Positions 1 through 29,343 of a stretch of DNA of 64,000 nt are shown one piece after another. Source of the DNA: a virus; the IMG/VR virus record IMGVR_UViG_2921665137_000001, positions 1-64,000 of that record. One strand, 5' to 3'. The notes under the pieces were generated by a model. It made no database searches and was not told where the DNA came from. It worked only from the letters and a program-made list of their open reading frames with translations. Each line of letters opens with the position of its first letter. Position 1 is the first letter of the stretch. The position numbers were made by a program, and so were the translations under genes.

Positions 1-1092
1 ATGGGCGCAATCACGCCACGAACGAACAAGGACGGTAGCACATCCTACAAGGCCCAGGTGCGGATCCGCAAGGATGGCAAGGTGCTGCACCAGGAAACCA
101 AGACCTTTGCCCGCAGGCAGGCTGCCGTCGCCTGGGTGAAGAAACTGGAAACCGAACTAGCCGATCCGGCAGGGCTGAAAAAGGCGCTGGCCGAAGACCC
201 GCCACTGAAAGACGTGATCGACCGGGCGCGGAAAGAGACCAAGCGGGCTATGAGCAAGTCGAAAATCAATGTGCTGAAAATGATTGAGGCACACGATTTC
301 GCCATGAAGCGCTGTTCGCAGATTGACAGTGCGGCGCTCGTCGGATTCGTTGGCGGCCTCGGTGTTTCCCCGTCCACCGCAGACAATTACTTTTCGCATC
401 TGGCATCCATCCTTAAAATCGCCAGGCCAGCATGGGGATTCCCGATTGACGAACAGGCAGTTAATGACGCCCGGGTGGTAATGAAGCGCCTCGGCACGAT
501 TGCCCGCTCAAATAAACGCGATAGACGCCCCACCGTCGATGAAATGAACCGGCTGATGGATTATTTCAGCAAGTCGAAAAGCACGCGCGGCGATACGCTG
601 CCAATGACGTCGATCTGTTTAATGACGATTTTCTCGCTGCGCCGCTCCATCGAGATATGCAATATCACATGGAATGACCTTGACATCGACGGATGCCGGG
701 TCATGGTGCGCGACCTTAAACATCCTGAAGAAAAGGCGGGAAATGATACGTGGTGTTATCTGACACCCGAAGCCTTGCGGGTGATTCTGGCCCAGCCGAA
801 AGTGACCGGGCAACCGCGCATATTCCCGCACGTGCCCAAGTCGACCAGCGATGCATTCGCCAGTGCGACGCTCGCGCTCGGCATTGAAGACTTGACGCTC
901 AACGATCTGCGGCACGAGGGCGCGAGCCGTCTGTCGGAGATGGGCTGGACTGTTCAGCGCGTTGCGTCCGTTTCTGGACACCGTAGCTGGAACACCCTGA
1001 AGCGGTACACGCACGTCCGAGAGGTTGGCGACAAATGGGCTGGCTGGGAATGGTTGGACCGCATAGCACCTCAGACCACGCCCGCCAGTTGA
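1..1092 (+). CDS. int: Tyrosine recombinase / phage integrase
   Basis: 363 aa. The C-terminus carries the R..H..R..Y catalytic motif region (LRHEGASRL...GHRSWNTLKRYTHV). The N-terminal SAM-like domain is typical of the phage integrase family. The ORF starts at window position 1, so the true start is uncertain. Confidence 0.9.
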   Translation: MGAITPRTNKDGSTSYKAQVRIRKDGKVLHQETKTFARRQAAVAWVKKLETELADPAGLKKALAEDPPLKDVIDRARKETKRAMSKSKINVLKMIEAHDFAMKRCSQIDSAALVGFVGGLGVSPSTADNYFSHLASILKIARPAWGFPIDEQAVNDARVVMKRLGTIARSNKRDRRPTVDEMNRLMDYFSKSKSTRGDTLPMTSICLMTIFSLRRSIEICNITWNDLDIDGCRVMVRDLKHPEEKAGNDTWCYLTPEALRVILAQPKVTGQPRIFPHVPKSTSDAFASATLALGIEDLTLNDLRHEGASRLSEMGWTVQRVASVSGHRSWNTLKRYTHVREVGDKWAGWEWLDRIAPQTTPAS

Positions 1093-1337
1093 TCGCATTC
1101 CTTCTTCGCTGCCGCCCGGGCCGCGTCGATGTAGTCGGCCAGGTCCTGCACATAGACGCCCTTGGCCGCCTTCTGGCTTTTCTCGCTCCGGACCAGCGGC
1201 AACGCGATTTCGCCGGTTGCGATCTTGCGTAGCAGCTTGTCCAGTTCGAGATGTGCGAAGTACTCCCGACGCACCTCTTCGATTGGGATCACAGCTCGAG
1301 CGCCAAACTGCGCCATCAAAAGAAACACGGTATTCAT
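1071..1337 (-). CDS. PrtN-like DNA-binding regulator (pyocin activator PrtN family; possible excisionase/late regulator)
   Basis: 88 aa. The N-terminus MNTVFLLMAQFGARAVIPIEEVRREYF...LRKIATGEIALPLV matches the PrtN family signature as I recall it. It is convergent with int and overlaps its 3' end. Confidence 0.65.
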   Translation of the reverse strand: MNTVFLLMAQFGARAVIPIEEVRREYFAHLELDKLLRKIATGEIALPLVRSEKSQKAAKGVYVQDLADYIDAARAAAKKECDQLAGVV

Positions 1338-1396
1338 TCCCTACCTCCCAAGCCATTCCCGTCGAGTGACGGCCAAGATTCGTTGTGCTGCGTCGA

Positions 1397-2593
1397 TCAT
1401 GCGCCCTTCACACACAAAACCTGTTTTAGGACGGCAACCACTTCAACGAGATCGGTCTGGTTTGCCATGACTTCATCAATGTTCTTGTACGCACCAGGAA
1501 TCTCATCAAGCACCGAATCATCCTTAAGACACTCGACGCCATCCGTTTGCGCCTGAAGGTCGGCCACCGTGAAGCGCTTGCGAGCTGCAGTTCGGCTCAT
1601 CCGTCGCCCGGCACCATGCGAGCATGAGCAGTAGGATTGAAGTTCGCCCTTCCCTCGCACGATATAACTGCGTTGCCCCATTGAGCCGGGGATAATCCCC
1701 AGATCGCCCTCACGCGCCCGAATGGCCCCCTTCCGCGTGATCCACAGATTCCGCCCGAAGTGATTCTCCCGGGCGACATAGTTGTGATGACACTGGATCG
1801 CCTCCTGAGTCACCGTGAAATCTATGGAAATGTGTCGGCGTAATGCAGCAATGGTGCGCTCCATCATGACCCGGCGATTCTCCAGGGCGTACTCTTGCGC
1901 CCACTCGACGGCTGCCATGTAGTCGTTGAAGTCCTCGGTGTCTTCAGGCAGGTAGGCCAGATCGACGTCGGGCAGGTTGATAAACCAGCCCTTCATAGCC
2001 TTCTTGGCGCGTTCGATGAAGTACGAGCCGATCATGTTTCCGATGCCGCGTGAACCGCTGTGGAGCATCACCCACACGTTTTGATCAGCATCGAGACATA
2101 CTTCGATGAAGTGATTGCCTGAGCCAAGCGAACCCAGTTGCTTCCATGCCTTTGTCGTCAGGCTCTTGCCGATCCCCGGATGCTTCTCGCCGATCATCTT
2201 GAGGCGCATCAGGAATGACGGGTCAACATCAGGCATATCCTGGTCGCGTTGATGCGCTCCACCGGCGCCCAGCGGTATGTCTCGCTCTATCTGGCTGCGG
2301 ATCGCCTTCAGGTCGTCAGGCAGATCGCTTGCCTTCAGAGACAGTCGCACTGCGACCATGCCACATCCCAGGTCGACCCCAACCGTTGCCGGAATTACAG
2401 CCTTGTCGGTGGCGATCACGGACCCGATAGTTGAGCCTCGGCCTGAATGCACATCCGGCATCAGTGCGACTCCGTTCGCCGCAATGAACGGCAGGCGCGC
2501 AAGATTCTTTGCCTGTTGCAATGCCTCCGGTTCGATATCATCCGTCCAAATCTTGATCGGCCGCGCGCCCTCTTCGTTGATGACCTTCTTCAT
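1397..2593 (-). CDS. rtcB: RtcB-family RNA 3'-phosphate/5'-OH ligase
   Basis: 398 aa. Conserved RtcB blocks are present (HNYVARENHFGRNLWITRKGA, GSMGQRSYIVRG, CSCSHGAGRRMSR). The ATG start overlaps the stop of the upstream gene (ATGA). Confidence 0.9.
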   Translation of the reverse strand: MKKVINEEGARPIKIWTDDIEPEALQQAKNLARLPFIAANGVALMPDVHSGRGSTIGSVIATDKAVIPATVGVDLGCGMVAVRLSLKASDLPDDLKAIRSQIERDIPLGAGGAHQRDQDMPDVDPSFLMRLKMIGEKHPGIGKSLTTKAWKQLGSLGSGNHFIEVCLDADQNVWVMLHSGSRGIGNMIGSYFIERAKKAMKGWFINLPDVDLAYLPEDTEDFNDYMAAVEWAQEYALENRRVMMERTIAALRRHISIDFTVTQEAIQCHHNYVARENHFGRNLWITRKGAIRAREGDLGIIPGSMGQRSYIVRGKGELQSYCSCSHGAGRRMSRTAARKRFTVADLQAQTDGVECLKDDSVLDEIPGAYKNIDEVMANQTDLVEVVAVLKQVLCVKGA

Positions 2594-2763
2594 CGTTGCT
2601 CCTCAGTTGTTTGTTCCGCAAACCACAGCACCGCCCTAAGTTCATCCACCGAGAAAACTCCATCCATCACCACTAGGTCAGCGCGCCAATCAGGTACGCC
2701 GTCGAGCATCTGGATGTTGCCGCCGCAGTCGCGGAGAATTTGTTTGGCTTGGTCGTGGGTCAT
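2590..2763 (-). CDS. Hypothetical small protein (57 aa), translationally coupled between the 142-aa gene and rtcB
   Basis: ATGA overlap at both ends. An AAGGAA ribosome-binding site lies 5 nt upstream of ATG 2763. The ORF-track start at 2796 would overlap the upstream gene. Confidence 0.5.
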   Translation of the reverse strand: MTHDQAKQILRDCGGNIQMLDGVPDWRADLVVMDGVFSVDELRAVLWFAEQTTEEQR

Positions 2764-3188
2764 TTTGGTTCCTTGATCAAATTCGCCTCGACCCACTGGC
2801 GCATGCGCACCCAGCGCTGCTCCGGAGTGTCATATTCGATATGACCAAGGGCGGCATTCCAGTGATAGTCGTTCTCGTCATTCTCGAACACGATTTCTGC
2901 CGCAAGAGCGGGCGCTATGTTGAAAGCCGCCCCAACGGCGTCACGGTCTTCCGGGTCAAGCTTCGCCATATCCACGCCGCGCGCATGCCCCAGGACGCCG
3001 ATCGTGCAGAACTCACCTTCGGCGGTCTGCAGTTCGTCAGCAATTAGGCGCTTTTCCGGCATCGCATCGAGTGCCGCGGCGAGGTCCCGGAAAAATGCCT
3101 GCCCGCGCTTGCCTCTAATGGCTGACTTGACCGCGCCGCGCCACAACTCCACGCCTTCGTAATCGTCGCTATATCCGCTTCTGCTCAT
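2760..3188 (-). CDS. Hypothetical protein (142 aa), first gene of the rtcB sub-operon
   Basis: Clean ORF with balanced composition. Its stop overlaps the start of the next gene. No family recognised. Confidence 0.55.
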   Translation of the reverse strand: MSRSGYSDDYEGVELWRGAVKSAIRGKRGQAFFRDLAAALDAMPEKRLIADELQTAEGEFCTIGVLGHARGVDMAKLDPEDRDAVGAAFNIAPALAAEIVFENDENDYHWNAALGHIEYDTPEQRWVRMRQWVEANLIKEPK

Positions 3189-3421
3189 TTCTCATCCTTA
3201 TATCGCTCACTGCGCTGCCTGGCCCGCTCGACCAACTTCATGAAATGACGCATTCGTAGCAACGTTCCGACAGCCTTCTGATAATCACCCCACGAGCCGA
3301 CCATGAAGCGATACCCTCCGCAGCGCGGGCCGAACTTTGCAATGGCGATAGACAGTTGGGCTTCGGCCTGCTGAAGGTGCTGCTCGACTTCGCTCAGGAC
3401 TTCTGCGTCGGTCTGGCGCAT
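3185..3421 (-). CDS. Hypothetical protein (78 aa)
   Basis: Overlap-coupled member of the leftward operon. Confidence 0.45.
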   Translation of the reverse strand: MRQTDAEVLSEVEQHLQQAEAQLSIAIAKFGPRCGGYRFMVGSWGDYQKAVGTLLRMRHFMKLVERARQRSERYKDEK

Positions 3422-3648
3422 TAACCCTCCCTATCACCCAAAGCACCCCTAGCCCGCCCCTTCGCCCACCCCTCAAACTCGCCCGGGTCGTCCCATTCCG
3501 CCGTATCGGCGTTGGCGATTTCGCGGAGGGTTTGCTCTAGCAGGGTGATGCGGGCATCCTTCGCTTCGGTGAAATCCAGAATCGCATGACGATCGGCGGG
3601 AGTGATTTCGCGATTAGCATCGCGGATAAGTTCAATCAGATCACTCAC
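3421..3648 (-). CDS. Hypothetical protein (75 aa)
   Basis: Acidic small protein, overlap-coupled. Confidence 0.45.
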   Translation of the reverse strand: MSDLIELIRDANREITPADRHAILDFTEAKDARITLLEQTLREIANADTAEWDDPGEFEGWAKGRARGALGDREG

Positions 3649-3941
3649 TTTGCATCTCCATTGACAAGGCCCCGAATAGCGTTCTCGCAGTCCTGAACTG
3701 CCACGTTGTAGGCGATGTCATCGGCAGAGTCGGTCGGATCGACAAGGCGCTCCGCGTGAACCGCCTCCCGACTTTCCTCCAGCGCGGCGCGGCGGGATGC
3801 TTGCCACGCTTCACTCGCTGCCATGCGCGCCATGCGAAAGACGCTCGCGCCTTCGTCATCATCCTTGGCGGCCTCAGACAAAACGCGATACCACGCGGTG
3901 CTTTTGATGTGCGCTTCGATCTGTTCATCGGTCATGGTCAT
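3645..3941 (-). CDS. Hypothetical protein (98 aa)
   Basis: ATGA overlap with the downstream gene. Protein-like composition. Confidence 0.5.
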   Translation of the reverse strand: MTMTDEQIEAHIKSTAWYRVLSEAAKDDDEGASVFRMARMAASEAWQASRRAALEESREAVHAERLVDPTDSADDIAYNVAVQDCENAIRGLVNGDAK

Positions 3942-4159
3942 GCTCCGTAATATTTAAGCGAGTCATTCCATCGCGCCCAACGGTCGTGACAGGCCGGACA
4001 CACCGCGCGATAACCGCCTTCGCTGCAACCATCCGCAACCGGGCCGCAGTAGTACGGCACGCAATGCAACCAGTCCCCGATAGCGGGACACATGGCGCAC
4101 TCAATGGCCATTGGCGGCGTCATGTTGTGGATGTGAATCAGGCCGCGGTCATCGCTCAT
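3938..4159 (-). CDS. Small Cys-rich (Zn-ribbon-like) protein. The start is ambiguous (4159 or 4222).
   Basis: Multiple C-x-x-C / C-P-A-C pairs (ECAMCP...CPACH). The internal Met at 4159 is preferred over the upstream start. Confidence 0.4.
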   Translation of the reverse strand: MSDDRGLIHIHNMTPPMAIECAMCPAIGDWLHCVPYYCGPVADGCSEGGYRAVCPACHDRWARWNDSLKYYGA

Positions 4160-4230
4160 GCTTAATCTCAAAAAAGAACCGGCCCGTACTGGCCGGCATA
4201 AACGCCGCGCGGAGGGCCGCACGATCGGGG

Positions 4231-5067
4231 TTACTTGCTACCGAGTTGAATCATCGGCATAGCGCCGCCCATCATGTAGGTCGGATAATGCCCATCCCAT
4301 CGTTCCACCTTCATTTTCTCGATCAGCGCCGGGTTGGCTTCGAGTGACTTGCCCATCAGTTCGTTGGCCTTCGCGTTGTTCTCGGCAACCCTTAGCGCGG
4401 CTTCGGACTCGACCACGCGTTTCTGCGCTTCCCACTTCGTCTGCACGATTTCGTTTTCGACGCGCAACGCGTTCTGCTGGGCGGTAATCTTTGCCTCGAT
4501 CGCATCGTTGAACTGTTTGCTGAACTGGAAGTTCACGATGTTCACTGCGCTCACGTTCACGCCGATATTCTTGAAGCGTGTCAGCAATGATTCACGCACC
4601 TCCTGACTCACCTGGTCGCGCTTCTGGATCAGGTCGGTCGCCTCGTATCGGGCTGCAACGGCTTTCACAATATCGTGTACCGCAGGGTCCATGACTTGCG
4701 TCCACGGATCGCCGCCGAGGTTGGAATAGATGCCGACTGCCGCGGTGGGGAGAATGTTGAAGTTCACCGACACCTTCATGTCCACTTGCTGAAGGTCTTT
4801 GGATGATCCCGCGACGTCGGATTCGGCCTTGTACACGCCGATGTAGACGTTGTGCATCGACTGCGAGATCGGCATGCGGAAGTGAATGCCGGGGTCATAG
4901 ACCGATGCAGTTGGAGCACCGAACGTTGTCATCACGCCCACATTGCCCGCTGGCACGGAAGCGAACGGCCAAAGGATGAAAAGCGCGATCAGCAATATAA
5001 CGGCGCCGACTGCACCGACGATGATCTTGATACTTCCTTGCGGGACTTCTCTGGTTGCGGTAACCAT
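4231..5067 (-). CDS. SPFH/Band-7 (stomatin/prohibitin/HflK-C-like) membrane protein
   Basis: 278 aa. It has an N-terminal transmembrane helix (IIVGAVGAVILLIALFILW) followed by an SPFH core and a coiled-coil tail (QQNALRVENEIVQTKWEAQKRVVESEAALRVAENNAKANEL). An AAGGAA ribosome-binding site is present. Confidence 0.85.
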   Translation of the reverse strand: MVTATREVPQGSIKIIVGAVGAVILLIALFILWPFASVPAGNVGVMTTFGAPTASVYDPGIHFRMPISQSMHNVYIGVYKAESDVAGSSKDLQQVDMKVSVNFNILPTAAVGIYSNLGGDPWTQVMDPAVHDIVKAVAARYEATDLIQKRDQVSQEVRESLLTRFKNIGVNVSAVNIVNFQFSKQFNDAIEAKITAQQNALRVENEIVQTKWEAQKRVVESEAALRVAENNAKANELMGKSLEANPALIEKMKVERWDGHYPTYMMGGAMPMIQLGSK

Positions 5068-5174
5068 ACTATTTTCCTTCTGTGGTTGAAAAAATTAGAG
5101 GCTCCCACACCACCCAGCCTAGAGATCAACGCCAAAGGCTTCATCTATTCGGATGGGCGGGAGCCGGGAAGGGG

Positions 5175-5870
5175 TTAGGCGGCTTCAGCGAACGTCATGC
5201 GCCTGTACACACCGCGCGTGCGCTCAATATCGCCACCGCAGTATTTCGCCACCTCAGCGATACGTCCGGCCTTCACGAAATCCCACACAAGGGAGCCGTC
5301 AATTTCCTCGCCGATCTCCGAGCCCTTCTGCTGCAATCCCATCGCTCCGACCAACTTGTCGAGTTTGACCGGGTTTTTAACGCCGCCCCAACGCGCCATC
5401 GTGTCAAATACCTTGGCGTCGTCCCATGGCTTGGCAGAGAACGGGATGAATGGCGTAGGCTTCACGCCCAACATGACCGCGCGTTGAAACAGGAAACGAA
5501 AGTCGAACTCCACGATGTTGTGACCGATGAACAGCGGACGGTCGCCAAGATTGACCGAGCATCGTTCATGGATCGCGTCAAATGCCTCGCGCAGCATGTC
5601 GGCTTCTCGGTCGACCCACTCAGGCGACCAGATCATCAAGGGCTCCTCGCCGTTGAATGCGAGCCCGATGACGGCAACGTGACCAAGTGCGCCGTCAAAG
5701 CTCGTCTTGCGCCACGCCTCTTCGACCGCAGCAGGCTTCTTCTCGGCCTCCCACGTGGCGATGGATTCCGCCTTGGTGATGTTGCCGGGGCAACTAACGC
5801 CCTTTGCGATCTGTTCACGGACGCCAGACAACTGGCTCGGGCAGGTTTCAATATCAAGATAAATTTCCAT
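5175..5870 (-). CDS. DEDD-type 3'-5' exonuclease (PolB-exonuclease-like, phage recombination accessory)
   Basis: Starts MEIYLDIETCP (Exo I D-x-E motif), with later ...HNIVEFDFRFL and ...YCGGDIERT motifs. A GGAAACC ribosome-binding site is present. The ORF-track start at 5957 lies inside the upstream gene. Confidence 0.75.
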   Translation of the reverse strand: MEIYLDIETCPSQLSGVREQIAKGVSCPGNITKAESIATWEAEKKPAAVEEAWRKTSFDGALGHVAVIGLAFNGEEPLMIWSPEWVDREADMLREAFDAIHERCSVNLGDRPLFIGHNIVEFDFRFLFQRAVMLGVKPTPFIPFSAKPWDDAKVFDTMARWGGVKNPVKLDKLVGAMGLQQKGSEIGEEIDGSLVWDFVKAGRIAEVAKYCGGDIERTRGVYRRMTFAEAA

Positions 5871-5877
5871 GGTTTCC

Positions 5878-6810
5878 TCAGTAGGGAATATCTTCGTCTT
5901 CGAATTCGGGTTGCGGCTGCTCAAGTTGCTTCTTGCGCTTGTCTTTAGCCGCAACAAAGGCGTCCTCGGATAGCTTGTCTTTGCGCTCGCGTGCCAACTT
6001 CACGGCGGCCTTATATTCGGCGACCAGTGATTCCATGTCGGCGGCACTTTCAATCGCGGCCTGCCAGTCGGCCAACTCCTGAGCGGTCACTCCTTCTGGG
6101 GCGGGTTCGGCTCCGCTCTCCAGCCACTCGCGCAGCATCACGCCGGTTGCTTCGCTGATCTTGAACGGATCGCGGTCCATGAACAGACCAGTGCGATCCT
6201 TCGACGTTTGCACAAAGTGCGTGTCATGCACCACATCGAGAACAACCGTCATTTCGTACTCGAAGCCGTCGCGCTGCTCTGCCTTCATGCCGAGCTTCAC
6301 GACCTGTTTCTTGCCGTTCTGCCCTTCTGTCTGCGCCGTTTCGGTCTTACTGCGCATCGTGATAATCACGTGCATGGGAGATCGCTGGATAGCGTCGATG
6401 AATGCCCGATGGCGAGGCGTGATATCGCTCCATGCGGACCATGAATTTCCCTTGTATCGGGCCTTGGCGATCTCGTCGACCAACTCCAGACACCCGCCGA
6501 CACCGGACCATTCATGCGTGGTGGAATCGATAATCAGAACGTCATACCCACCTTGCTCGGCTTCACGCATCGCCTTGATGAAGTTCTCCGGCGCGTACGG
6601 CGGATCAAGGTCTTGCGAGTCGAACTCGACGTCATACTTGCGGTTGTCCGCGTACAGCGACGCCGAACCCTTTTCGGTGTCAATCACCGCGATCTTTCCG
6701 CCCAATCCTTTGGCTATCAGCAGTGCTCCAAGGGTCTTGCCAGATCCGCTCGGGCCGGTTATGCCGAGGCGAAGTTTCGATTTTTTGCGTACCGCTTTCG
6801 TGAATGCCAT
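5878..6810 (-). CDS. AAA/RecA-like ATPase, Sak4-like (AAA_24) single-strand annealing/recombination protein
   Basis: Walker A motif GITGPSGSGKT and Walker B motif DVLIIDS. It has a C-terminal acidic tail. Position next to an exonuclease is typical of phage Sak4 modules. Confidence 0.8.
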   Translation of the reverse strand: MAFTKAVRKKSKLRLGITGPSGSGKTLGALLIAKGLGGKIAVIDTEKGSASLYADNRKYDVEFDSQDLDPPYAPENFIKAMREAEQGGYDVLIIDSTTHEWSGVGGCLELVDEIAKARYKGNSWSAWSDITPRHRAFIDAIQRSPMHVIITMRSKTETAQTEGQNGKKQVVKLGMKAEQRDGFEYEMTVVLDVVHDTHFVQTSKDRTGLFMDRDPFKISEATGVMLREWLESGAEPAPEGVTAQELADWQAAIESAADMESLVAEYKAAVKLARERKDKLSEDAFVAAKDKRKKQLEQPQPEFEDEDIPY

Positions 6811-6936
6811 TTTGATTCTCCTTGCTGGGCGCACTGGCTATCCCTTGCTGCGTCCCAAACATTGGTTGATGTGTCTCGTACCACTCCATAGCCTCTAGGG
6901 CTTCCTGCATTTCCCATCCGGGACCATCGTCGTCAG

Positions 6937-8334
6937 TCACGCTGCCTTCTCCTCGGGCGCCTTAAACGCCGCCGCATTGAATTTTTCGAGCCAGCCGACA
7001 ACGACAAGCGGCTTCACATCGAAGATATCCGCCAGCCTTGTGACGATTGCCTCGTCACCCGGGCCGTTCTTCTCGAACTGCACGCGGACTCGGCGGATCT
7101 GTTCGCGCTCTGCTGCGTCTTTCTCCGCTTGTAGACGTGCGGCCTCTGCTGCTTCCGCTTCGGCGACGCGCTGGGCTTCGATTGCTGCGGCGCGTTCGGC
7201 TTCCTCGCGCTGGCGACGGGCTTCGACGTCCTCGGCCTCTTTCCGCTCGGCATCGACCAACAGTCGGCGAATCTCCGCAACCGCAGTCGTCTTGGCACTT
7301 TCCGCTGAACTGGCCAGAATACCGAACCGCTCCGCATCGATCTCCCACGCCTCAGTCTCAGCCAGCGTCTCGCGGATGCATTCGATGGTTCCACCCTTGC
7401 GCACGCCCAAGCGGCCTGACTGGGCGATGATTACCTGCTGCTGGATGCCCTGAATCTCGGACATGGCAGCAGCCATCTTGTCGGCGGCTTCCTGCTGGGC
7501 ACGCAAACTCGCCTGTTCTGCCTCATGTTGGGCCAGCCACGCTGCGTTGGCAGCTTCGCGTTCCGCAGCCATCCGGCGTTCGTGCGCTTCCTGCTCTGCC
7601 AGCATCGCCGCTTGCGCCTTGGCTCGGGCAATCCGCTCTTCGTCGGCGATACGTTGGCGCTCAAGTGCTGCCACCCGATCACGTTCAGCCGCTTCGGCGC
7701 GTTCGCGGGCCAACGTCTCCCGTTCAGCCTCCAAGGCTGCCTGTTGAAATTCATGCAGGCGCATTGCTTCCTGCATCTCCCGCAACTTCTTGACGGCGTG
7801 GTCGCGCTCAACCTGACCTTCGCCGGCAAACTCCTGATAGTCCTCCAGCGAAATCACCGTTTCTGACAAATGATCCGCAGCCGCGCCGATTTCAGCGGAA
7901 GACTGACCCACCATCGAAGCGGGCATGTTGCGCATCCCGTCGATCACGGCGCGGATTGCATCAACCCGGGCTTTCTCGACCGCCAACTTCTCCAGCCGCT
8001 CAGCCTCGCGCTCCGCATCAAACGTATCGCGCAGGTTCTGCAAGCGACGTTCTTCGTCAGCCGTAATCGCTGTCAGCCGGTCAACCTCCTGAATCACGGC
8101 CTTCGAGAACTTGGTCGCATCGTCCCGAGCATCCTTGCCAGCCTTCTCGATGGCAATGCGGGCGTTTTTGAGCGTCATGTACGCGGCGTGCGCCTGCTCA
8201 CGGCCTGCCGGGTTGACGATCTTCGTGATGTCGGCGTACTTGGTCGACAACTCGATCAAGGCTTTTTCGTGCTCGGCGGTGCCTAGCGCGACTGCAGCGC
8301 GCTCCGGCACGGTCAGTTCTGTGGATTCGGTCAT
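6937..8334 (-). CDS. Phage coiled-coil protein, probably DUF1351-like Sak4 partner
   Basis: 465 aa with a long Ala/Glu/Arg-rich coiled coil. The assignment to DUF1351 rests on gene neighbourhood and recall of the family, not on a database search. Confidence 0.6.
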   Translation of the reverse strand: MTESTELTVPERAAVALGTAEHEKALIELSTKYADITKIVNPAGREQAHAAYMTLKNARIAIEKAGKDARDDATKFSKAVIQEVDRLTAITADEERRLQNLRDTFDAEREAERLEKLAVEKARVDAIRAVIDGMRNMPASMVGQSSAEIGAAADHLSETVISLEDYQEFAGEGQVERDHAVKKLREMQEAMRLHEFQQAALEAERETLARERAEAAERDRVAALERQRIADEERIARAKAQAAMLAEQEAHERRMAAEREAANAAWLAQHEAEQASLRAQQEAADKMAAAMSEIQGIQQQVIIAQSGRLGVRKGGTIECIRETLAETEAWEIDAERFGILASSAESAKTTAVAEIRRLLVDAERKEAEDVEARRQREEAERAAAIEAQRVAEAEAAEAARLQAEKDAAEREQIRRVRVQFEKNGPGDEAIVTRLADIFDVKPLVVVGWLEKFNAAAFKAPEEKAA

Positions 8335-8525
8335 GCCGCCCTCCGTTCAGGTGGAAGCGCAGCAAACCGCGCCTCGTAGTTTTCGAAATAGCCCGCGAAT
8401 GTCTCGCGCAGCTTTACCTTGTTGACGGCGTCCGCTGCGTAATAGCAATCCGCGAGCGCTCTAACGAAACTGCCGCCCTGAATCTCCATCATGTGCAGGG
8501 CGTCGTCATAGATTTGTTGGCTCAC
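8331..8525 (-). CDS. Hypothetical small protein (64 aa)
   Basis: ATGA overlap with the upstream gene start region. Confidence 0.4.
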   Translation of the reverse strand: MSQQIYDDALHMMEIQGGSFVRALADCYYAADAVNKVKLRETFAGYFENYEARFAALPPERRAA

Positions 8526-8679
8526 GTCGCTCCCCTAACCGAAAGCAGTTGAAGCCGCAGCGCCGCCGTGTTATCCCGATCCGCCTTGTCGGCCATGCAG
8601 AGCGTGACAAAGGCTGCGAGGATCATTCCGGCGAGCGAGACACGCGGGTGCCGTCGATAGAAATTGTCGAATTTGCGAA

Positions 8680-8856
8680 TCACTTCGCCCTCTCCCCATA
8701 CGGCACCGCACGCCGCTGAACCCGGTTAGCTGGCGCCAACAAATACTTGTCACCCAGCGCTTCAATGGCCCGCTCGCGGCGTTCTTCAATGCTGTCTACG
8801 TACTCAGCCATCTGTTTGAGTGCGGCTTTGCGTTGTGCTTCGAATGCGTCGATCAT
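8680..8856 (-). CDS. Hypothetical small protein (58 aa)
   Basis: ATGA coupling to the gene ending at 8853. Charged helical composition. Confidence 0.35.
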   Translation of the reverse strand: MIDAFEAQRKAALKQMAEYVDSIEERRERAIEALGDKYLLAPANRVQRRAVPYGERAK

Positions 8857-9128
8857 TTCGGCTCCTCGCATTGTTTGAGCGCAAGCATCAGCATCCCGCC
8901 CACCATATGCTGGCTGTGGGCAATGTTTGCGCTCAGGTCATCACTGACCATCTTCGGGATCGGCCCCGCCATTTCATTGATAAACTCGGCGACCCATTCA
9001 AGACGACCGGCGAGGCGATCCATGTTGACTTCGCGCAATACCATCGCGACGTCTTCGATGTTGCGAGTCGCGTTCATGATCTTGTGCGCTCGCGCCATAA
9101 TGCTTAGATGCTCGTCTGTATCGAACAT
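8853..9128 (-). CDS. Hypothetical protein (91 aa)
   Basis: A strong GGAGG ribosome-binding site lies 6 nt upstream of ATG 9128. Confidence 0.45.
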   Translation of the reverse strand: MFDTDEHLSIMARAHKIMNATRNIEDVAMVLREVNMDRLAGRLEWVAEFINEMAGPIPKMVSDDLSANIAHSQHMVGGMLMLALKQCEEPK

Positions 9129-9129
9129 G

Positions 9130-9336
9130 TCACCCTCCACATAAAACGTCGAATAGCCGATCACCAAAGAACCCAACCATCACCAGCGTCGCCAATCCCG
9201 CACCCGACAGGAAAATCAATACGCCGATAGCTAGGTCATCGGTGATATCAGGGTGACGGATTGGCTCGCGATTGATGCCGGCGACGTTTCGGACTACGCG
9301 GCCAGAGAGGCGACGTAGGAAATAGGGTCTTGTCAT
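9130..9336 (-). CDS. Small membrane protein (68 aa)
   Basis: Arg-rich N-terminus followed by a hydrophobic helix (IGVLIFLSGAGLATLVMVGFF). Confidence 0.35.
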   Translation of the reverse strand: MTRPYFLRRLSGRVVRNVAGINREPIRHPDITDDLAIGVLIFLSGAGLATLVMVGFFGDRLFDVLCGG

Positions 9337-9344
9337 GATCAGTC

Positions 9345-9767
9345 TCAGTCGGTGTAAGCGATGTACTTGAACTTGCCGCCGCCGAAGTAATCGAACCGGC
9401 CGCCAAAGGTGCCGCGTACTTTTTCCTCGACCTCTGCGCGCGTCATGTCAGGCGGGTAGACGCCTTCCTTAATCATCGAAGCGTTAGAGTGCGGCTTGCT
9501 GTGCCAATCGAGCTTGGTAGGATCAAGCGGGCGCGGACGCCATGCTTCATACACAAACGACTTCGTGTTCGTCGTCACCACATAGTCGTTAATGATTTCC
9601 TCTCTCGCTTCCCAGTCGCACTCCGGGCAATGGAGATACGTGCTTATGCATGCGCTGCATGGCGGAGAAATGTGGCAAGAGCAGTTGTCAGGCTTTGTGA
9701 ACTCGATTCGACCATCGCAGCCTTCTCGCCCGCACACCTCGCCTTCTTCATGGCCGATAGCGCTCAT
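9345..9767 (-). CDS. Cys-rich Zn-binding hypothetical protein
   Basis: Several CxxC / CPEC motifs. Start chosen at MSAIGHEEG. Confidence 0.5.
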   Translation of the reverse strand: MSAIGHEEGEVCGREGCDGRIEFTKPDNCSCHISPPCSACISTYLHCPECDWEAREEIINDYVVTTNTKSFVYEAWRPRPLDPTKLDWHSKPHSNASMIKEGVYPPDMTRAEVEEKVRGTFGGRFDYFGGGKFKYIAYTD

Positions 9768-9967
9768 CGCAACACCCCAAAAATACGATCGAAAAGTGTG
9801 TCGACTTCGCGCAGGCATTTATCGTCGCGGAATGCCTCGAAGTCTTCCCATTCGGCTGCGCGCTCGTATTCCGTTAGCGGCTCGACCGGATCAAACGATT
9901 CTTCCTGCCTCTTGCGGTCCAGGCGCTCGAATTCGAGCCAAGCTCGCTGGTTTGCGTGCTGTCCCAT
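9764..9967 (-). CDS. Hypothetical protein (67 aa)
   Basis: ATG 9967 has a GGAG ribosome-binding site. The longer ORF begins with GTG. Acidic composition. Confidence 0.4.
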   Translation of the reverse strand: MGQHANQRAWLEFERLDRKRQEESFDPVEPLTEYERAAEWEDFEAFRDDKCLREVDTLFDRIFGVLR

Positions 9968-10135
9968 GATTTGCACTCCGTAATGTTTTTGAAGGTTTCT
10001 CGCCTTCAGCGGATGACGCTGCGACACAGGCTATCGGTGTAGTCGTCGCAAGGCTAGCCAGGCACTCACGGGCTCCGGTTAAGGCGCAGTGCCATCCGTT
10101 GAAGGCCCCGGTTTAAGCGCCGGGTCCGCTCTAAA

Positions 10136-10276
10136 TCACTGCCACCACTCGTGGCCTTCGCCCTGGCAATGGTCACACTCCATCAGGCCATCGCTGAAGT
10201 CATCGCGACCAGATCCGCCGCACTTCGGACAGAAGCCACCATTTGCGGGCTCGTCGAGGTCTTCGTCATCGTCCAT
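10136..10276 (-). CDS. Small Zn-ribbon protein (46 aa)
   Basis: CPKCGGSG...CDHCQGEGH motifs. It lies immediately after the stop of the 10278..10655 gene. Confidence 0.4.
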   Translation of the reverse strand: MDDDEDLDEPANGGFCPKCGGSGRDDFSDGLMECDHCQGEGHEWWQ

Positions 10277-10277
10277 G

Positions 10278-10655
10278 TCAGTCGTACCAGCCGGAGCGCT
10301 CAAGTTCCTCTTCGGCCTCCTCGTTCTGTCGCCGGATGCATGCGCCGCACACGTCATACAGCCGGCCATACGAGCCTTCCTCGTAGTCGCGGCGCGGGCG
10401 CAAGTCGGTCGCCTGCCGTCCGCACCAGTCACAGACACCGGTCGCGCGCTCGGCGGCCGTCTCGGCCATTTCGCGCTTATAGGCGGCGTGGCACTCGTCG
10501 CACATGTCGATCAACTCGCAGCCGAACGAGTCGGTTTCACCCTGCACGCGGTGCATTGCTGGGCGGTCGGAATGGTCATCGCACATCACGCCATCTGGCA
10601 CGGCATGGTGCGCGCCAGGTAGCGTGCTTATCGGTCCAGTAACTTCAGCCATCAT
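10278..10655 (-). CDS. Cys/His-rich hypothetical protein (125 aa)
   Basis: CDECH, CDWCG and CGAC motifs. Acidic C-terminus. Confidence 0.5.
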   Translation of the reverse strand: MMAEVTGPISTLPGAHHAVPDGVMCDDHSDRPAMHRVQGETDSFGCELIDMCDECHAAYKREMAETAAERATGVCDWCGRQATDLRPRRDYEEGSYGRLYDVCGACIRRQNEEAEEELERSGWYD

Positions 10656-10791
10656 TGCTCCCTCAATCGTTTAATCCCGCGTTGCTCGATTTCATCCCTG
10701 CGATCCGTGAGGGCGGCAGCCTTAAGCATCGGCCAGACAACGACCGCCATCGCCAGGGCGAACAGGCCGTAGATCGTGAAAATGGTTGAGA

Positions 10792-11112
10792 TCATGGCTG
10801 GCCCTTCGCGTGTTCGCGCAGCCTCGCCTCAATCGAAGCGATGTGCTGTCTCATGGAATCCACGCGGGCTGCGTATAGTTTCTTGACGCCCAGCATCACC
10901 ATTTCAGTTCCGCGAATCGCGATGGCAGCGTAGTTGCGTCCATGGTCGATTTCTGCGAGGCCGAAAGAACGCCCCTTCTCGCCGATCCGAACGTGGACCG
11001 TCTGCTGATGGCCGCTCAGGTTCAGCAGCGACGCTTCATATTCCAGCATGTCTAGATCGGAACGCGCCTTGTCAAGCGCCTCGGCCAATTTCACGATGTT
11101 CTGTGTGTTCAT
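10792..11112 (-). CDS. Hypothetical protein (106 aa)
   Basis: Clean ORF. No family recognised. Confidence 0.5.
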   Translation of the reverse strand: MNTQNIVKLAEALDKARSDLDMLEYEASLLNLSGHQQTVHVRIGEKGRSFGLAEIDHGRNYAAIAIRGTEMVMLGVKKLYAARVDSMRQHIASIEARLREHAKGQP

Positions 11113-11119
11113 TTCATCC

Positions 11120-11329
11120 TCAGCAAATAATCAACCCTTCAGCCTCGGCCGCCGCAGTGCGCTTTGCCGATTCCCAGCAAGGTTCGCAGCTGGCAAGCGA
11201 CAGTGACCAGCTGGGCCAATAGGATTTACAGGAACGCGCTTCGACACCCTCGCGCAATGTCTTGCACTCATCGCACAGGTCCAGAACACGCACCGTCATC
11301 TGGCGATTGCGGAATTGGTCATCAGTCAC
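11120..11329 (-). CDS. Small Cys-containing protein (69 aa)
   Basis: CDECK...CKSYWPSWS...CEPCW. ATGA-coupled to the next gene. Confidence 0.4.
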   Translation of the reverse strand: MTDDQFRNRQMTVRVLDLCDECKTLREGVEARSCKSYWPSWSLSLASCEPCWESAKRTAAAEAEGLIIC

Positions 11330-11652
11330 GGCAAAACCCTCCCAGTAGCCGCCTGCACAAACTCACGCATGATTTCCAGTGCAAGCGATTCATTACCGAC
11401 ATACAGAGCGTCAAAGATGCGAGGAATGGTGGTTTCGTCAGCGCCGACCGGCTTCAATCCGCGACGAACGATTTCCTGCTCAAGCTCGCACGTCTCGAAA
11501 TCCATCAGGTCAACGTCTACGTGGACGTATGGCATCGCTCCCTCACTGCAAACAAACCTGGCTGTAATCGACACTGCGGACCAGAATCGAGTTGACGTAC
11601 TGGTCGTAGTGATTGGCAAAACGCAGGATGTAATTGCTGATCTTCGGGGCAT
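11326..11652 (-). CDS. Hypothetical protein (108 aa)
   Basis: An AGGAGA ribosome-binding site lies upstream of ATG 11652. Confidence 0.55.
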   Translation of the reverse strand: MPRRSAITSCVLPITTTSTSTRFWSAVSITARFVCSEGAMPYVHVDVDLMDFETCELEQEIVRRGLKPVGADETTIPRIFDALYVGNESLALEIMREFVQAATGRVLP

Positions 11653-12443
11653 AGGCCCGGAAGCCGTAATCGCTGTAGAACATGATGGTCTCCTGAAGGA
11701 GTACTAATCGCGCCACATAAAGCAGCGCTCCGGGTAATCTTTGGTGCAGTGTTTACGGAGGCGCGCTGTGCTATGCAGGGAGCTATCTACTGGTGTTTCC
11801 TGCCGTAAGAACCGGGGCTAATATCCACCGGGCCAGCAGGCCTTACGCCGATTTACTATGCGGGGAACACAACACGCTTTCGTGAAAACTGCCTCTTCGG
11901 ACCCGTCCGGCTACACCCAACTTGGCTGGCTCCGGCTCAGGTCCGTGTTACCCCGCAACGATCACCCGAATCCTGTTCCGGCGACTGTTGCGGTTGCCCC
12001 GATTACTACGCGATCGGCGGCCCCTCCTTGGTTCGCGCCCCTTGCGGGGAATGGTTGCGTTGTTCTGCTTTCTCGCGTCGACCATGACGACAACGGCTCG
12101 ACAGATATCTCCGGTGTTCTGGCCTTACGTGTCGTGCGCTATAACAGTGATAAAGAACCTCTTGCCCTACCAGGCGACGCCATGCGCCTGTGTTCCTCTA
12201 CTGCGGCACTTCTACTGCTCTGGTGGTATGGGGCCAGTGCTGATCTCTGGCTTGCTGGATGGCACTAAACCAGCCCTTGTACGCGTCTACTATCCGTATC
12301 TACCATCTATGTCCGCTCGGTCTGCAACTCCATACATGCACAGCAGCCGGATTCATCTCGGTGCGCATCAGCCTGCGCATTCCCATCCCATCAGAACAGT
12401 TACAGCCCGTAGCCGCGATACTCTGCGGCGTTGGTTTCGACCT

Positions 12444-28937: not shown

Positions 28938-29010
28938 CGGGTGGTAGCTCAGGGAGCAGGCCGGATTCCAAATCCGAGCCGGGTGACGTTCGATTCGTCC
29001 GCTGCCCGCC
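28938..29010 (+). tRNA. tRNA-like element, Trp(CCA)-like anticodon loop and a degenerate D-arm. It may be a phage tRNA, a tRNA pseudogene or an att/pac-associated remnant.
   Basis: Acceptor GGGTGGT pairs with GCTGCCC (with G·U pairs). D-stem GCTC/GAGC has only a 3-nt loop. Anticodon stem-loop is CGGA-TTCCAAA-TCCG. T-arm is GACG-TTCGATT-CGTC with G53:C61, then discriminator G and an encoded CCA. A second perfect T-arm-like hairpin TCAGG-TTCGAAG-CCTGG lies at 29041-29057. Confidence 0.3.
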
Positions 29011-29343
29011 AGAGGAAAGCTCCGGTACGCAGGCCGGCGAGTCAGGTTCGAAGCCTGGCGTCTTCACGCATGACGATTGAGATAGCCGTATGGGGCATTC
29101 CGGCCGGATGCCAGTACTTGCCGGCGTCAGTCGTCAGTCGTGAAGGTGAAGCACCACCGGTAGCGCGCTCCGATCGGAGGCCATAGCGCCATGCGTACCG
29201 GTCGCATTAGCTCTCTCCCCAATCTCCTCGCGCCGACCTCATCGGCGTTTGCCCAGTGGGTTGGGCTATTTTATTTGCATGTCTGAGTGAAAAGTGGCGG
29301 TCGCTCGCTCTGTCGGAAGTGGTAATTACTCAAAGGCGTAGAT

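What the first reader, a model, noticed from the sequence alone, without database searches (positions are those of the whole stretch)
1071..3188. Phage-encoded RtcB RNA ligase operon next to the integrase
Three minus-strand genes are strictly coupled by ATGA overlaps: a 142-aa gene, a 57-aa gene and rtcB. They sit immediately inside the prophage end beside int and a PrtN-like regulator. RtcB seals RNA with 2',3'-cyclic phosphate and 5'-OH ends, the products of anticodon nucleases (PrrC/RloC-type, colicin-like, some abortive-infection systems). T4 counters PrrC with Pnk plus Rnl1. A phage RtcB could be an analogous one-enzyme tRNA-repair counter-defence. The two small partners might be specificity or activation factors, or inhibitors of the host RtcR-controlled response. 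Alternatively the trio could be a prophage-encoded stress or defence module.
Basis: partly seen in the sequence, partly recalled or inferred. Interest (0 to 1): 0.6.

Follow-up and report, generated by a model that had tools for sequence, protein, structure and literature searches.

The report
Stand-alone RtcB ligase in a prophage
A Paraburkholderia prophage carries an intact RtcB RNA-repair ligase as the last cargo gene before its excision and integration genes, but the two small genes beside it are unrelated neighbours, so this is an ordinary new example of the already known phage-borne RtcB.

Summary
The ORFs and both ATGA overlaps are real. rtcB (1397-2593, minus strand) is a full-length RtcB with every catalytic residue and is 52% identical to E. 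coli RtcB. It lies inside a complete lambdoid prophage whose integrase abuts host rnr.

The "three-gene operon" is not a unit:
- The overlaps continue upstream through at least 7 genes. 12 of 24 junctions in this early-left operon are 4-nt overlaps.
- None of 123 loci with RtcB relatives holds a p142 or p57 homologue within 6 kb.
- None of 80 viral p142 loci holds RtcB or p57, and 5 p57 loci lack RtcB.
- The closest p142 relative (91%) lies upstream of a different small gene, two extra genes and a disrupted, intein-bearing RtcB.

What does recur is the position: rtcB directly upstream of unrelated xis-int pairs in other temperate phages. There is no RtcA, RtcR, sigma-54 motif, PrfH, archease or PADLOC hit.

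Phage RtcB is common (708 phage records). The idea that it counters tRNA-cleaving defence was published in 2011 and 2021 and I found no experimental test of it. tRNA genes are enriched beside phage RtcB genes, which fits a tRNA-repair role, but this window's only tRNA call is doubtful.

Verdict: a new member of a known kind, of low interest.

The parts
1397..2593 (-). rtcB: a 398-aa stand-alone RtcB-family RNA ligase (3'-phosphate or 2',3'-cyclic phosphate joined to 5'-OH). It is the core of the finding.
   Evidence: Pfam PF01139 E=3.4e-126, full length. phrog_1075 'tRNA splicing ligase' E=2.3e-150. Aligned to P. horikoshii RtcB, it keeps D74, C77, N160, H161, H178, H270 and H326, matching D95, C98, N202, H203, H234, H329 and H404. 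It is 52% identical to E. coli K-12 RtcB over residues 12-397. The Shine-Dalgarno motif GAGGAG lies 6 nt upstream, inside the end of p57.
2590..2763 (-). p57: a 57-aa gene of unknown function and a mosaic neighbour of rtcB, not an RtcB partner.
   Evidence: No Pfam, PHROG, NCBIfam or PADLOC hit. Only 7 close homologues were found, and about 20 small-protein clusters among 1.8 billion representatives. Its homologues lie in 5 other prophage loci without RtcB or p142. Third-codon-position bias indicates it is coding.
2760..3188 (-). p142: a 142-aa member of a very large uncharacterised phage and prophage family (phrog_25637), not an RtcB partner.
1071..1337 (-). An excisionase-like (PrtN/AlpA-type) gene, the last gene of the early-left operon. 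It is convergent with int and overlaps it by 22 nt.
   Evidence: PF11112 E=1.6e-28. phrog_1300 'excisionase' E=2.1e-30. A GGAGG Shine-Dalgarno motif lies upstream.
1..1092 (+). Tyrosine integrase at the prophage edge.
   Evidence: PF00589 E=1e-16. In the source contig it abuts the host rnr gene.
3185..4222 (-). Four further small genes (p78, p75, p98, p94/p73) linked to p142 by 1-4 nt overlaps. They show that the coupled run is at least 7 genes long.
   Evidence: ORF coordinates, sequence and gene calls in L005. No informative family hits.
4168..4197 (-). A terminator-like hairpin followed by a T-run, downstream of the SPFH gene and upstream of the 7-gene coupled run.
   Evidence: Consensus scan only: 7-bp stem with 6 GC pairs, then TCTTTTTT. 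The total number of terminator-like sites in the region is no more than chance.

Best explanation
rtcB is an intact, stand-alone RtcB RNA ligase carried as an accessory (cargo) gene. It is the penultimate gene of the roughly 13-kb early-left operon of a lambdoid Paraburkholderia prophage, directly upstream of the excisionase gene and the convergent integrase.

Shown:
- Its identity as RtcB.
- All catalytic residues are present.
- It lies in a prophage.
- There is no RtcA, RtcR, sigma-54 motif, PrfH or archease.
- The two upstream small genes are unrelated mosaic neighbours.
- The same rtcB-xis-int placement recurs in other temperate phages that have non-homologous xis and int genes.

Inferred:
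- Because it is translationally chained within the repressor-controlled early-left operon and no promoter of its own was detected, it is made on induction or infection rather than in the lysogen.
- It uses GTP and Mn2+ to reseal RNA carrying 2',3'-cyclic phosphate (or 3'-phosphate) and 5'-OH ends. These are the products of metal-independent ribonucleases such as HEPN-type anticodon nucleases, MazF-type enzymes and colicin- or CDI-type tRNases.
- The most likely benefit is keeping tRNAs and the translation apparatus working during lytic growth, when host or competitor RNA-cleaving systems fire. That would be a one-enzyme analogue of T4 Pnkp plus Rnl1.
For: - Identity: Pfam and PHROG matches, catalytic residues, 52% identity to the biochemically characterised E. 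coli RtcB.
- Prophage: Sak4-like annealing protein, primase/helicase, terminase, portal, major head protein, tape measure and tail fibre. A CI-like HTH gene with divergent operons, plus Rep_O and NinG. Integrase abutting host rnr.
- Not a host Rtc operon: no RtcA or RtcR homologue in the window, and only 1 and 2 of 125 related loci have them. No sigma-54 motif near the gene.
- Not a trio: none of 123 RtcB loci has p142 or p57 by tblastn or by HMM at E up to 10. None of 80 p142 loci has RtcB or p57. Loci with p57 homologues lack RtcB.
- Placement: rtcB lies immediately before unrelated xis-int pairs (Exc or DUF4224 type) in L091, L094/L130 and L109.
- Link to tRNA: 19 of 43 viral RtcB loci carry tRNA genes within 6 kb, against 7 of 80 p142 viral loci. 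A co-oriented tRNA-Pro(UGG) lies 4-66 nt downstream of RtcB in several lineages whose RtcB proteins are only 39-69% identical to each other.
- Prophage induction can itself generate the 2',3'-cyclic-phosphate RNA signal that activates RtcR, as shown for Gifsy-1 (PMC9879122).
Against: - No nuclease target or substrate is identifiable from the sequence.
- This prophage's only tRNA call (28939-29011) comes from ARAGORN alone and fails Rfam's thresholds. It is 26 kb from rtcB.
- The tRNA enrichment compares large lytic phages with temperate ones, so it is confounded by phage type.
- In the closest related prophage lineage the RtcB gene looks disrupted (L216 and L217), so the gene is dispensable there.
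- The two closest genomic relatives (70-71% identity, L011 and L012) and a group at about 60% are flanked by genes that look chromosomal rather than phage-like, so the clade is not phage-specific.
- Timing of expression is inferred from gene order only. The promoter scan uses an E. coli-type consensus.
- I found no experimental proof for any phage RtcB.
Confidence: 0.6

Rival explanations
1. One reading: p142, p57 and RtcB form a dedicated three-gene module in which the small proteins are specificity or activation factors for RtcB, or inhibitors of the host Rtc response.
For: The three genes are adjacent, co-oriented and joined by ATGA overlaps. A related prophage (L216/L217) also carries p142 and an RtcB gene in the same operon arm.
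Against: - The overlaps are the operon's norm, at 12 of 24 junctions.
- None of 123 RtcB loci has p142 or p57, and none of 80 p142 loci has RtcB or p57.
- p57 homologues sit after unrelated genes, and the gene after p142 in phage YA3 is unrelated to p57.
- In L216 the gene after p142 is a different 53-aa gene, two more genes intervene, and the RtcB gene is disrupted.
- p142 is not archease-like.
Confidence: 0.04
2. Lysogen-benefit gene (moron): RtcB is expressed in the lysogen and protects the host from incoming ribotoxins, such as CDI tRNase toxins or colicin-like tRNases and rRNases, or from antibiotic or stress damage to RNA. This would favour carriage of the prophage.
For: The att- and int-proximal position is typical of accessory cargo. 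The claim that host RtcB increases tolerance to ribosome-targeting antibiotics rests only on an abstract listed (PMC12606134). That Burkholderia CDI toxins are tRNases comes from my own knowledge and was not tested here.
Against: The gene is translationally chained (ATGA overlap) into the repressor-controlled early-left operon. No promoter-like site lies upstream on its strand and there is no sigma-54 or RtcR control. There is no PADLOC hit.
Confidence: 0.15
3. Self-repair or housekeeping during induction: RtcB repairs RNA damage caused by the SOS-inducing stress or by the phage's own (or co-resident prophages') nucleases, or it processes a phage RNA. It would not be countering a dedicated host defence.
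For: Induction of the Gifsy-1 prophage is required to generate the 2',3'-cyclic-phosphate RNA signal that activates the host Rtc operon (PMC9879122). rtcB sits in the operon that is switched on at induction.
Against: No nuclease that generates cyclic-phosphate ends is recognisable in the prophage from Pfam annotations. In Salmonella the RtcR regulon did not affect Gifsy particle production (a section heading in PMC9879122).
Confidence: 0.15
4. Nearly neutral cargo: RtcB was picked up from a betaproteobacterial chromosome, gives little or no benefit here, and is on the way to being lost.
For: In the related lineage L216/L217 the gene carries an intein plus a 54-codon deletion that removes H161 and H178, together with a frameshift. 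Chromosomal stand-alone relatives exist at 59-71% identity.
Against: The window's copy is full length with all catalytic residues, an intact Shine-Dalgarno motif and translational coupling. Intact RtcB genes are kept in 708 phage records from many hosts.
Confidence: 0.06

Closest known systems
E. coli RtcB (rtcBA operon, controlled by RtcR and sigma-54)
   Same: Same enzyme family and size (398 against 408 aa). 52% identity over the full length. The same metal-binding residues and the same GMP-accepting histidine as in P. horikoshii RtcB. The same chemistry is expected.
   Different: No RtcA, no RtcR and no sigma-54 promoter motif. It is encoded in a prophage early-left operon, not a chromosomal stress operon. 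It scores below the NCBIfam equivalog cut-offs.
Phage-encoded RtcB (PHROG 1075), for example Bordetella phage PHB04 gp041, Burkholderia phage FLC9, Ralstonia phiRSL1, cluster K1 mycobacteriophages and jumbo phages
   Same: The closest sequenced phage relatives are 59-73% identical. They are likewise stand-alone with variable neighbours. A role against tRNA-cleaving defence has been proposed for them (PMC3203893, PMC7824862).
   Different: Most characterised carriers are large lytic phages rich in tRNA genes. Here the carrier is a temperate lambdoid prophage, rtcB lies next to xis and int, and there is at most one doubtful tRNA gene.
T4 Pnkp plus Rnl1, the tRNA-repair counter to the PrrC anticodon nuclease
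   Same: Functional analogy only: resealing of RNA with 2',3'-cyclic phosphate and 5'-OH ends during infection.
   Different: Unrelated proteins and a different chemistry. T4 heals the ends and then seals them through 5'-phosphate and 3'-OH with ATP. RtcB joins 3'-phosphate directly to 5'-OH with GTP. No cognate nuclease is identified here.
RtcB2-PrfH ribosome rescue and repair pair (PMC9304027)
   Same: An RtcB paralogue that acts outside the RtcR operon.
   Different: No PrfH-like gene is adjacent. The TIGR03073 'release_rtcB' model scores 144.9 bits against a cut-off of 271.8.
Archease-RtcB pair of archaea and eukaryotes
   Same: The 142-aa size of the upstream gene is superficially like archease.
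   Different: p142 has no archease Pfam hit, is predicted to be mainly helical and has no structural match. Its distribution is independent of RtcB.

Membership tests
RtcB RNA ligase family (PF01139) | Full-length match to the family profile | tested here: met
   PF01139 E=3.4e-126, residues 27-397 on profile positions 1-426 of 426. phrog_1075 E=2.3e-150.
RtcB RNA ligase family (PF01139) | Metal-binding Asp, Cys and His residues and the histidine that accepts GMP | tested here: met
   D74, C77, N160, H161, H178, H270 and H326 align with P. horikoshii D95, C98, N202, H203, H234, H329 and H404. The roles assigned to these residues come from my knowledge of the published structures.
RtcB RNA ligase family (PF01139) | GTP/Mn2+-dependent ligation of 3'-phosphate or 2',3'-cyclic phosphate to 5'-OH | not testable with these tools
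   Needs a biochemical assay.
Host Rtc stress operon (rtcR-rtcBA) | Adjacent RtcA cyclase | tested here: not met
   tblastn with E. coli RtcA gave no hit in the window and 1 of 125 related loci.
Host Rtc stress operon (rtcR-rtcBA) | Divergent RtcR activator and a sigma-54 promoter | tested here: not met
   No RtcR hit in the window and 2 of 125 related loci. The TGGCAC-N5-TTGC motif has only 2 one-mismatch matches, at 10923 and 57764, fewer than chance and not near rtcB.
RtcB2-PrfH ribosome repair pair | Membership of the release-factor-H-associated RtcB subfamily, with an adjacent prfH | tested here: not met
   TIGR03073 scores 144.9 bits against a cut-off of 271.8. The neighbouring genes have no release-factor domain.
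Archease-RtcB pair | A neighbouring protein with the archease fold or domain | tested here: not met
Proposed three-gene p142-p57-RtcB module | Co-occurrence of the three genes in other genomes | tested here: not met
   None of 123 RtcB loci, none of 80 p142 loci and none of 5 p57 loci. Only the same prophage (L005) repeats the arrangement. The nearest relative, L216, has a different order and a disrupted RtcB gene.
Known anti-phage defence systems (PADLOC-DB 2.0) | Any component model matching genes in 1071-5067 | tested here: not met
   No hits apart from one at E=0.006 on p75, which is treated as noise.
Phage tRNA-repair counter-defence (functional class) | A cognate host anticodon nuclease, and rescue of infection by the ligase | not testable with these tools
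   The host genome and its defence repertoire are not available. This needs genetics.

The most novel reading that the evidence does not exclude
This stand-alone RtcB from a temperate phage, switched on with the early-left operon, is a single-enzyme counter-defence. It would religate tRNAs cut by a Paraburkholderia ribonuclease system that leaves 2',3'-cyclic phosphate ends (a HEPN-type anticodon nuclease or a tRNase toxin). The recurrent rtcB-xis-int placement would then mark a hotspot for anti-defence cargo in temperate phages of Betaproteobacteria. Proving this would give the first experimental evidence I know of for a phage RtcB acting as an anti-defence gene. Neither p142 nor p57 would be involved.
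Probability: 0.35. Interest if true: 0.5.

Novelty: new member of a known kind. Interest (0 to 1): 0.2.

Why it matters
If phage RtcB genes do undo tRNA cleavage, they are a widespread and so far untested class of anti-defence gene, found in more than 700 sequenced phages. A small temperate phage of a culturable genus would be an easier genetic system for testing this than jumbo phages or mycobacteriophages.

For this finding specifically, the main result is negative. The apparent three-gene operon comes from phage mosaicism and from the routine 4-nt gene overlaps in phage operons. This is a reminder that overlap coupling alone does not define a functional module.

Tried and rejected
- Known role for p57: nothing found. 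PDB sequence hits are noise at E of 0.16 or higher. The exhaustive profile search found only about 20 clusters of tiny proteins, plus spurious hits in repeat proteins.
- p142 being related to the DUF7448 or 150-aa genes that precede p57 homologues elsewhere: rejected, hhalign probability below 1%.
- p57 being related to the 54-aa gene after p142 in phage YA3: rejected, no alignment.
- Near-identical phage genome: megablast of 1-9000 against 50,697 phage records found none.
- att repeat: no direct repeat of 13 nt or more between the host flank beyond int and the window. The right end of the prophage was not located.
- A conserved neighbour of RtcB across 125 loci: none is credible. The apparent 51-locus cluster was an artefact of ORFs in alternative frames of rtcB chained together with GC-rich ORFs. 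The real downstream gene in the Burkholderiales MAGs looked like a membrane transporter by eye.
- Defence-module reading: no PADLOC hits.
- SPFH (Band_7) gene as an RtcB associate: it lies within 4 kb of RtcB in only 5 other viral loci, two of which have identical hit coordinates and are probably near-duplicates. This is too weak to claim.
Full report
**What is in the sequence**

On the minus strand of 1071-3188 there are four ORFs:
- 2760-3188, 142 aa (p142)
- 2590-2763, 57 aa (p57)
- 1397-2593, 398 aa
- 1071-1337, 88 aa

A 363-aa ORF at 1-1092 on the plus strand converges on the 88-aa gene and overlaps it by 22 nt. Each gene has a Shine-Dalgarno-like motif upstream: AAGGAT before p142, AAGGAA before p57 and GAGGAG before the 398-aa ORF.

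Family assignments:
- The 398-aa protein is RtcB (PF01139, E=3.4e-126, whole profile) and phrog_1075 'tRNA splicing ligase' (E=2.3e-150).
- The 88-aa protein matches PF11112 (PrtN), which PHROGs annotates as an excisionase family (phrog_1300). Given its position next to int, excisionase is the likelier role.
- The 363-aa protein is a tyrosine integrase.

**Is RtcB intact?**

Aligned to the P. horikoshii and T. thermophilus RtcB structures, the protein keeps D74, C77, N160, H161, H178, H270 and H326. These match P. horikoshii D95, C98, N202, H203, H234, H329 and the GMP-accepting H404. It is 52% identical to E. coli K-12 RtcB across the full length.

In NCBIfam the protein scores below every curated equivalog cut-off. 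Its best match is the extein part of an intein-containing RtcB model. It belongs to the family but to none of the named subfamilies.

**Is it in a prophage, and at the edge?**

Yes. The window encodes:
- a Sak4-like annealing protein, a polymerase exonuclease-like protein, a primase/helicase, terminase, portal, major head protein, tape measure and tail fibre
- a CI-like HTH gene with divergent operons, Rha/ANT, Rep_O and NinG

The same DNA is found in a 76-kb assembly contig. The identical p57 and a 99%-identical p142 are annotated from Paraburkholderia elongata. In that contig the integrase start lies 143 nt from a host RNase R family gene, followed by a SpoU methylase and ribose-5-phosphate isomerase A. 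The rtcB cluster is thus the int-proximal end of a roughly 13-kb early-left operon that runs leftwards from the repressor region.

**Is the trio a unit?**

No. Four lines of evidence agree.

1. The overlap chain is not confined to the trio.
   - p78 (3185-3421) overlaps p142 by ATGA.
   - p75 overlaps p78 by TAATG.
   - p98 overlaps p75 by GTGA.
   - p94/p73 overlaps p98 by ATGA.
   - In the gene calls, 12 of the 24 junctions of the operon are 4-nt overlaps.

2. The three genes have independent distributions.
   - Among 80 genome loci and 43 viral loci with RtcB relatives (39-75% identity, 6-kb flanks), none has a p142 or p57 homologue. This holds for tblastn at E up to 1e-3 and for family HMMs at E up to 10 within 4 kb of RtcB.
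   - Among 80 viral contigs with p142 relatives (54-77% identity), none has RtcB or p57.
   - Isolated phages with p142 homologues (Pseudomonas YA3; Ralstonia Eline and Bakoly) have no RtcB gene annotated within 4 kb of it.
   - Five loci with p57 homologues (76-85% identity) have neither RtcB nor p142.
   - The genes preceding p57 elsewhere are unrelated to p142. The small gene after p142 in YA3 is unrelated to p57.

3. The closest p142 relative tells the same story. In L216 and L217 (91% identity, two independent assemblies) the order is:
   - p142
   - a different 53-aa gene
   - a DUF7448 gene
   - a 167-aa gene
   - an RtcB gene that carries an intein, lacks the equivalent of residues 161-214 (including H161 and H178) and is frameshifted
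   - a 75-aa gene in the xis position (not annotated)
   - int

   The unrelated 53-aa protein ends in the same AEQTTEEQR as p57. That stretch encodes the Shine-Dalgarno motif and the start of the next gene, so it looks like a portable recombination junction, as is typical of phage mosaicism. A Burkholderia cepacia prophage with a 73%-identical p142 has no RtcB at all.

4. Nothing about p142 or p57 suggests RNA repair.
   - p142 belongs to a very large family (7278 hits, invariant N-terminal MSRSGY, phrog_25637) with no Pfam domain.
   - p57 is a real gene, with third-position substitution bias, but a rare one. I found 7 close homologues and about 20 small-protein clusters among 1.8 billion representatives.

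**What does recur**

The closest RtcB relatives (69-75% identity) sit in many different phage backgrounds with no conserved neighbour. In four viral contigs (L091, L094/L130, L109) rtcB is again the last gene before an excisionase-integrase pair. Those xis genes (Exc and DUF4224 types) and integrases are not homologous to the ones here. One of these RtcB genes (L109) carries an intein.

The int-proximal end of the early-left operon therefore looks like a cargo slot into which rtcB has moved repeatedly.

Other relatives appear chromosomal:
- The two closest genomic relatives (70-71% identity, L011 and L012) are flanked by genes that look chromosomal rather than phage-like, for example an alcohol-dehydrogenase-superfamily gene in L012.
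- A group of Burkholderiales MAG copies at about 60% identity is followed by what looks like a membrane transporter by eye.
- The clade is therefore not exclusive to phages.

**Relation to the host Rtc system**

- tblastn with E. coli RtcA and RtcR finds nothing in the window. Only 1 and 2 of the 125 related loci have them.
- The sigma-54 promoter motif does not occur near rtcB.
- There is no PrfH-type partner.
- PADLOC gives no hits for any gene in 1071-5067.

**Likely function**

Shown: this is an intact RtcB in a prophage early-left operon.

Inferred from gene order: it is made on induction or infection.
- It is chained to its neighbours by overlaps.
- No sigma-70-like promoter was detected on its strand in 900-12000.
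- A terminator-like hairpin lies only further upstream, at 4197-4178.

Inferred from the family's established chemistry: it reseals RNA with 2',3'-cyclic phosphate (or 3'-phosphate) and 5'-OH ends, the products of metal-independent RNases.

Circumstantial support for tRNA as the substrate class:
- tRNA genes lie within 6 kb of RtcB in 19 of 43 viral loci (46 tRNAs in 492 kb), against 7 of 80 p142 viral loci (7 tRNAs in 797 kb).
- In six viral contigs, representing at least four lineages whose RtcB proteins are 39-69% identical, a co-oriented tRNA-Pro(UGG) follows RtcB by 4-66 nt.
- Two MAG loci have RtcB followed by tRNA-Trp.

Caveats:
- The comparison is confounded by phage type, because large lytic phages carry many tRNAs.
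- The window's own 'tRNA-Trp(CCA)' at 28939-29011 is an ARAGORN-only call. It fails Rfam: the best match is tRNA-Sec at 22.7 bits against a threshold of 47, and its predicted folding energy is not unusual (z = -0.9).

I rank the explanations as follows. The counter-defence or translation-protection reading is the most likely. Next come repair of induction-associated damage (compare Gifsy-1, PMC9879122) and benefit to the lysogen. Neutral cargo is last.

**Comparison with what is known**

Phage-borne RtcB is common. tblastn finds it in 708 of 50,697 phage records. The nearest are Bordetella phage PHB04 (72.6%), Burkholderia phage FLC9 (67.8%) and Ralstonia phiRSL1 (58.9%).

The hypothesis that phage RtcB protects against host tRNA cleavage was stated for cluster K1 mycobacteriophages in 2011 (PMC3203893). 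It was restated for jumbo phages in 2021 (PMC7824862). I found no paper in the searchable library that tests it experimentally.

**Verdict**

The ORFs, the overlaps and the RtcB identity hold. The claim of a distinct trio does not.
Phage RtcB as a plausible tRNA-repair counter-defence stands, but the partner-protein idea is refuted by the distributions and the central idea is already published.
- This is a new member of a known kind, and its interest is low (0.2).
- The most useful by-products are the recurrent rtcB-xis-int placement and the RtcB-tRNA-Pro(UGG) synteny in other phages.

Noticed in passing
L101 7200-7276; L110 2773-2844; L120 7244-7315; L125 7192-7267; L126 7215-7292; L133 377-448 (viral contigs). 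Also L054 1499-1574 and L055 7238-7313.: A co-oriented tRNA-Pro(UGG) gene lies 4-66 nt downstream of RtcB in six viral contigs. These represent at least four lineages whose RtcB proteins are only 39-69% identical and whose tRNA sequences differ. Two MAG loci have RtcB followed by tRNA-Trp(CCA) and tRNA-Leu genes. Overall, tRNA genes occur in 19 of 43 viral RtcB loci against 7 of 80 viral p142 loci. This could point to a tRNA-Pro-directed nuclease as a common target, but phage size and lifestyle were not controlled for.
   Followed up: partly
window 28939-29011 (+): ARAGORN calls a tRNA-Trp(CCA) just upstream of the terminase genes, ending in CCA and with a good T-arm. No Rfam tRNA model reaches its threshold: the best is tRNA-Sec at 22.7 bits against 47. 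The D-arm is aberrant and the predicted folding energy is not unusual (z = -0.9). It could be a divergent phage tRNA, a tRNA-like element or a false call.
   Followed up: partly
L216 7520-9360 and L217 1944-3148: A related prophage, seen in two independent assemblies, has an RtcB gene with an intein inserted just before the CHHNY active-site motif. The gene also has a 54-codon internal deletion that removes the NH motif and H178, together with a frameshift, so it is probably a pseudogene. L109 (5086-7089) has an apparently intact intein-containing RtcB of 667 aa.
   Followed up: partly
window 2590-2620 (3' end of p57) and L216 6560-6587: p57 and an unrelated 53-aa protein in L216 end in the identical peptide AEQTTEEQR. 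This stretch encodes the Shine-Dalgarno motif and the ATGA start of whichever gene follows: rtcB here, a DUF7448 gene in L216. It looks like a shared recombination junction between mosaic modules.
   Followed up: partly
L091 6001-8522; L094 and L130 6001-8893; L109 5086-8487: rtcB is the last gene before xis-int in several temperate viral contigs whose excisionases (Exc or DUF4224 type) and integrases are not homologous to those of the window. This suggests a recurrent cargo slot at the int-proximal end of the early-left operon.
   Followed up: partly
window 2760-3188 (-): The p142 family (phrog_25637) has more than 7000 homologues in prophages of Burkholderia, Pseudomonas, Ralstonia and other genera. 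It has an invariant N-terminal MSRSGY, about 30 invariant positions, no Pfam domain, and a confident AF2 model with no detectable fold relatives. Some members carry an insertion of 20-30 residues in the C-terminal part. It is a large uncharacterised phage family that may deserve a DUF entry.
   Followed up: partly
window 4231-5067 (-) and 4168-4197 (-): An SPFH/Band_7 (HflK/C-like) membrane protein gene sits in the early-left operon and is followed by a terminator-like GC hairpin with a T-run. SPFH genes also lie within 4 kb of RtcB in five other viral loci (L098, immediately downstream; L106; L111; L112; L128), against 1 of 80 p142 loci. This is a weak association that may be chance.
   Followed up: no
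window 1071-1092: The integrase (plus strand) and the excisionase-like gene (minus strand) are convergent and overlap by 22 nt at their 3' ends. The integrase start lies only 143 nt from the divergent host rnr gene (L005 12593 and 12737). No tRNA gene was found in L005, and no repeat of 13 nt or more was found between the host flank beyond int and the window.
   Followed up: partly
L096 5057-5995: In one viral contig a queuine tRNA-ribosyltransferase-like (TGT/DpdA-type) gene lies immediately upstream of RtcB, with a 5-nt gap.
   Followed up: no
L006 1017-2763: One prophage-like contig carrying a p57 homologue also encodes a bAvd protein plus a reverse transcriptase, which suggests a diversity-generating retroelement.
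   Followed up: no
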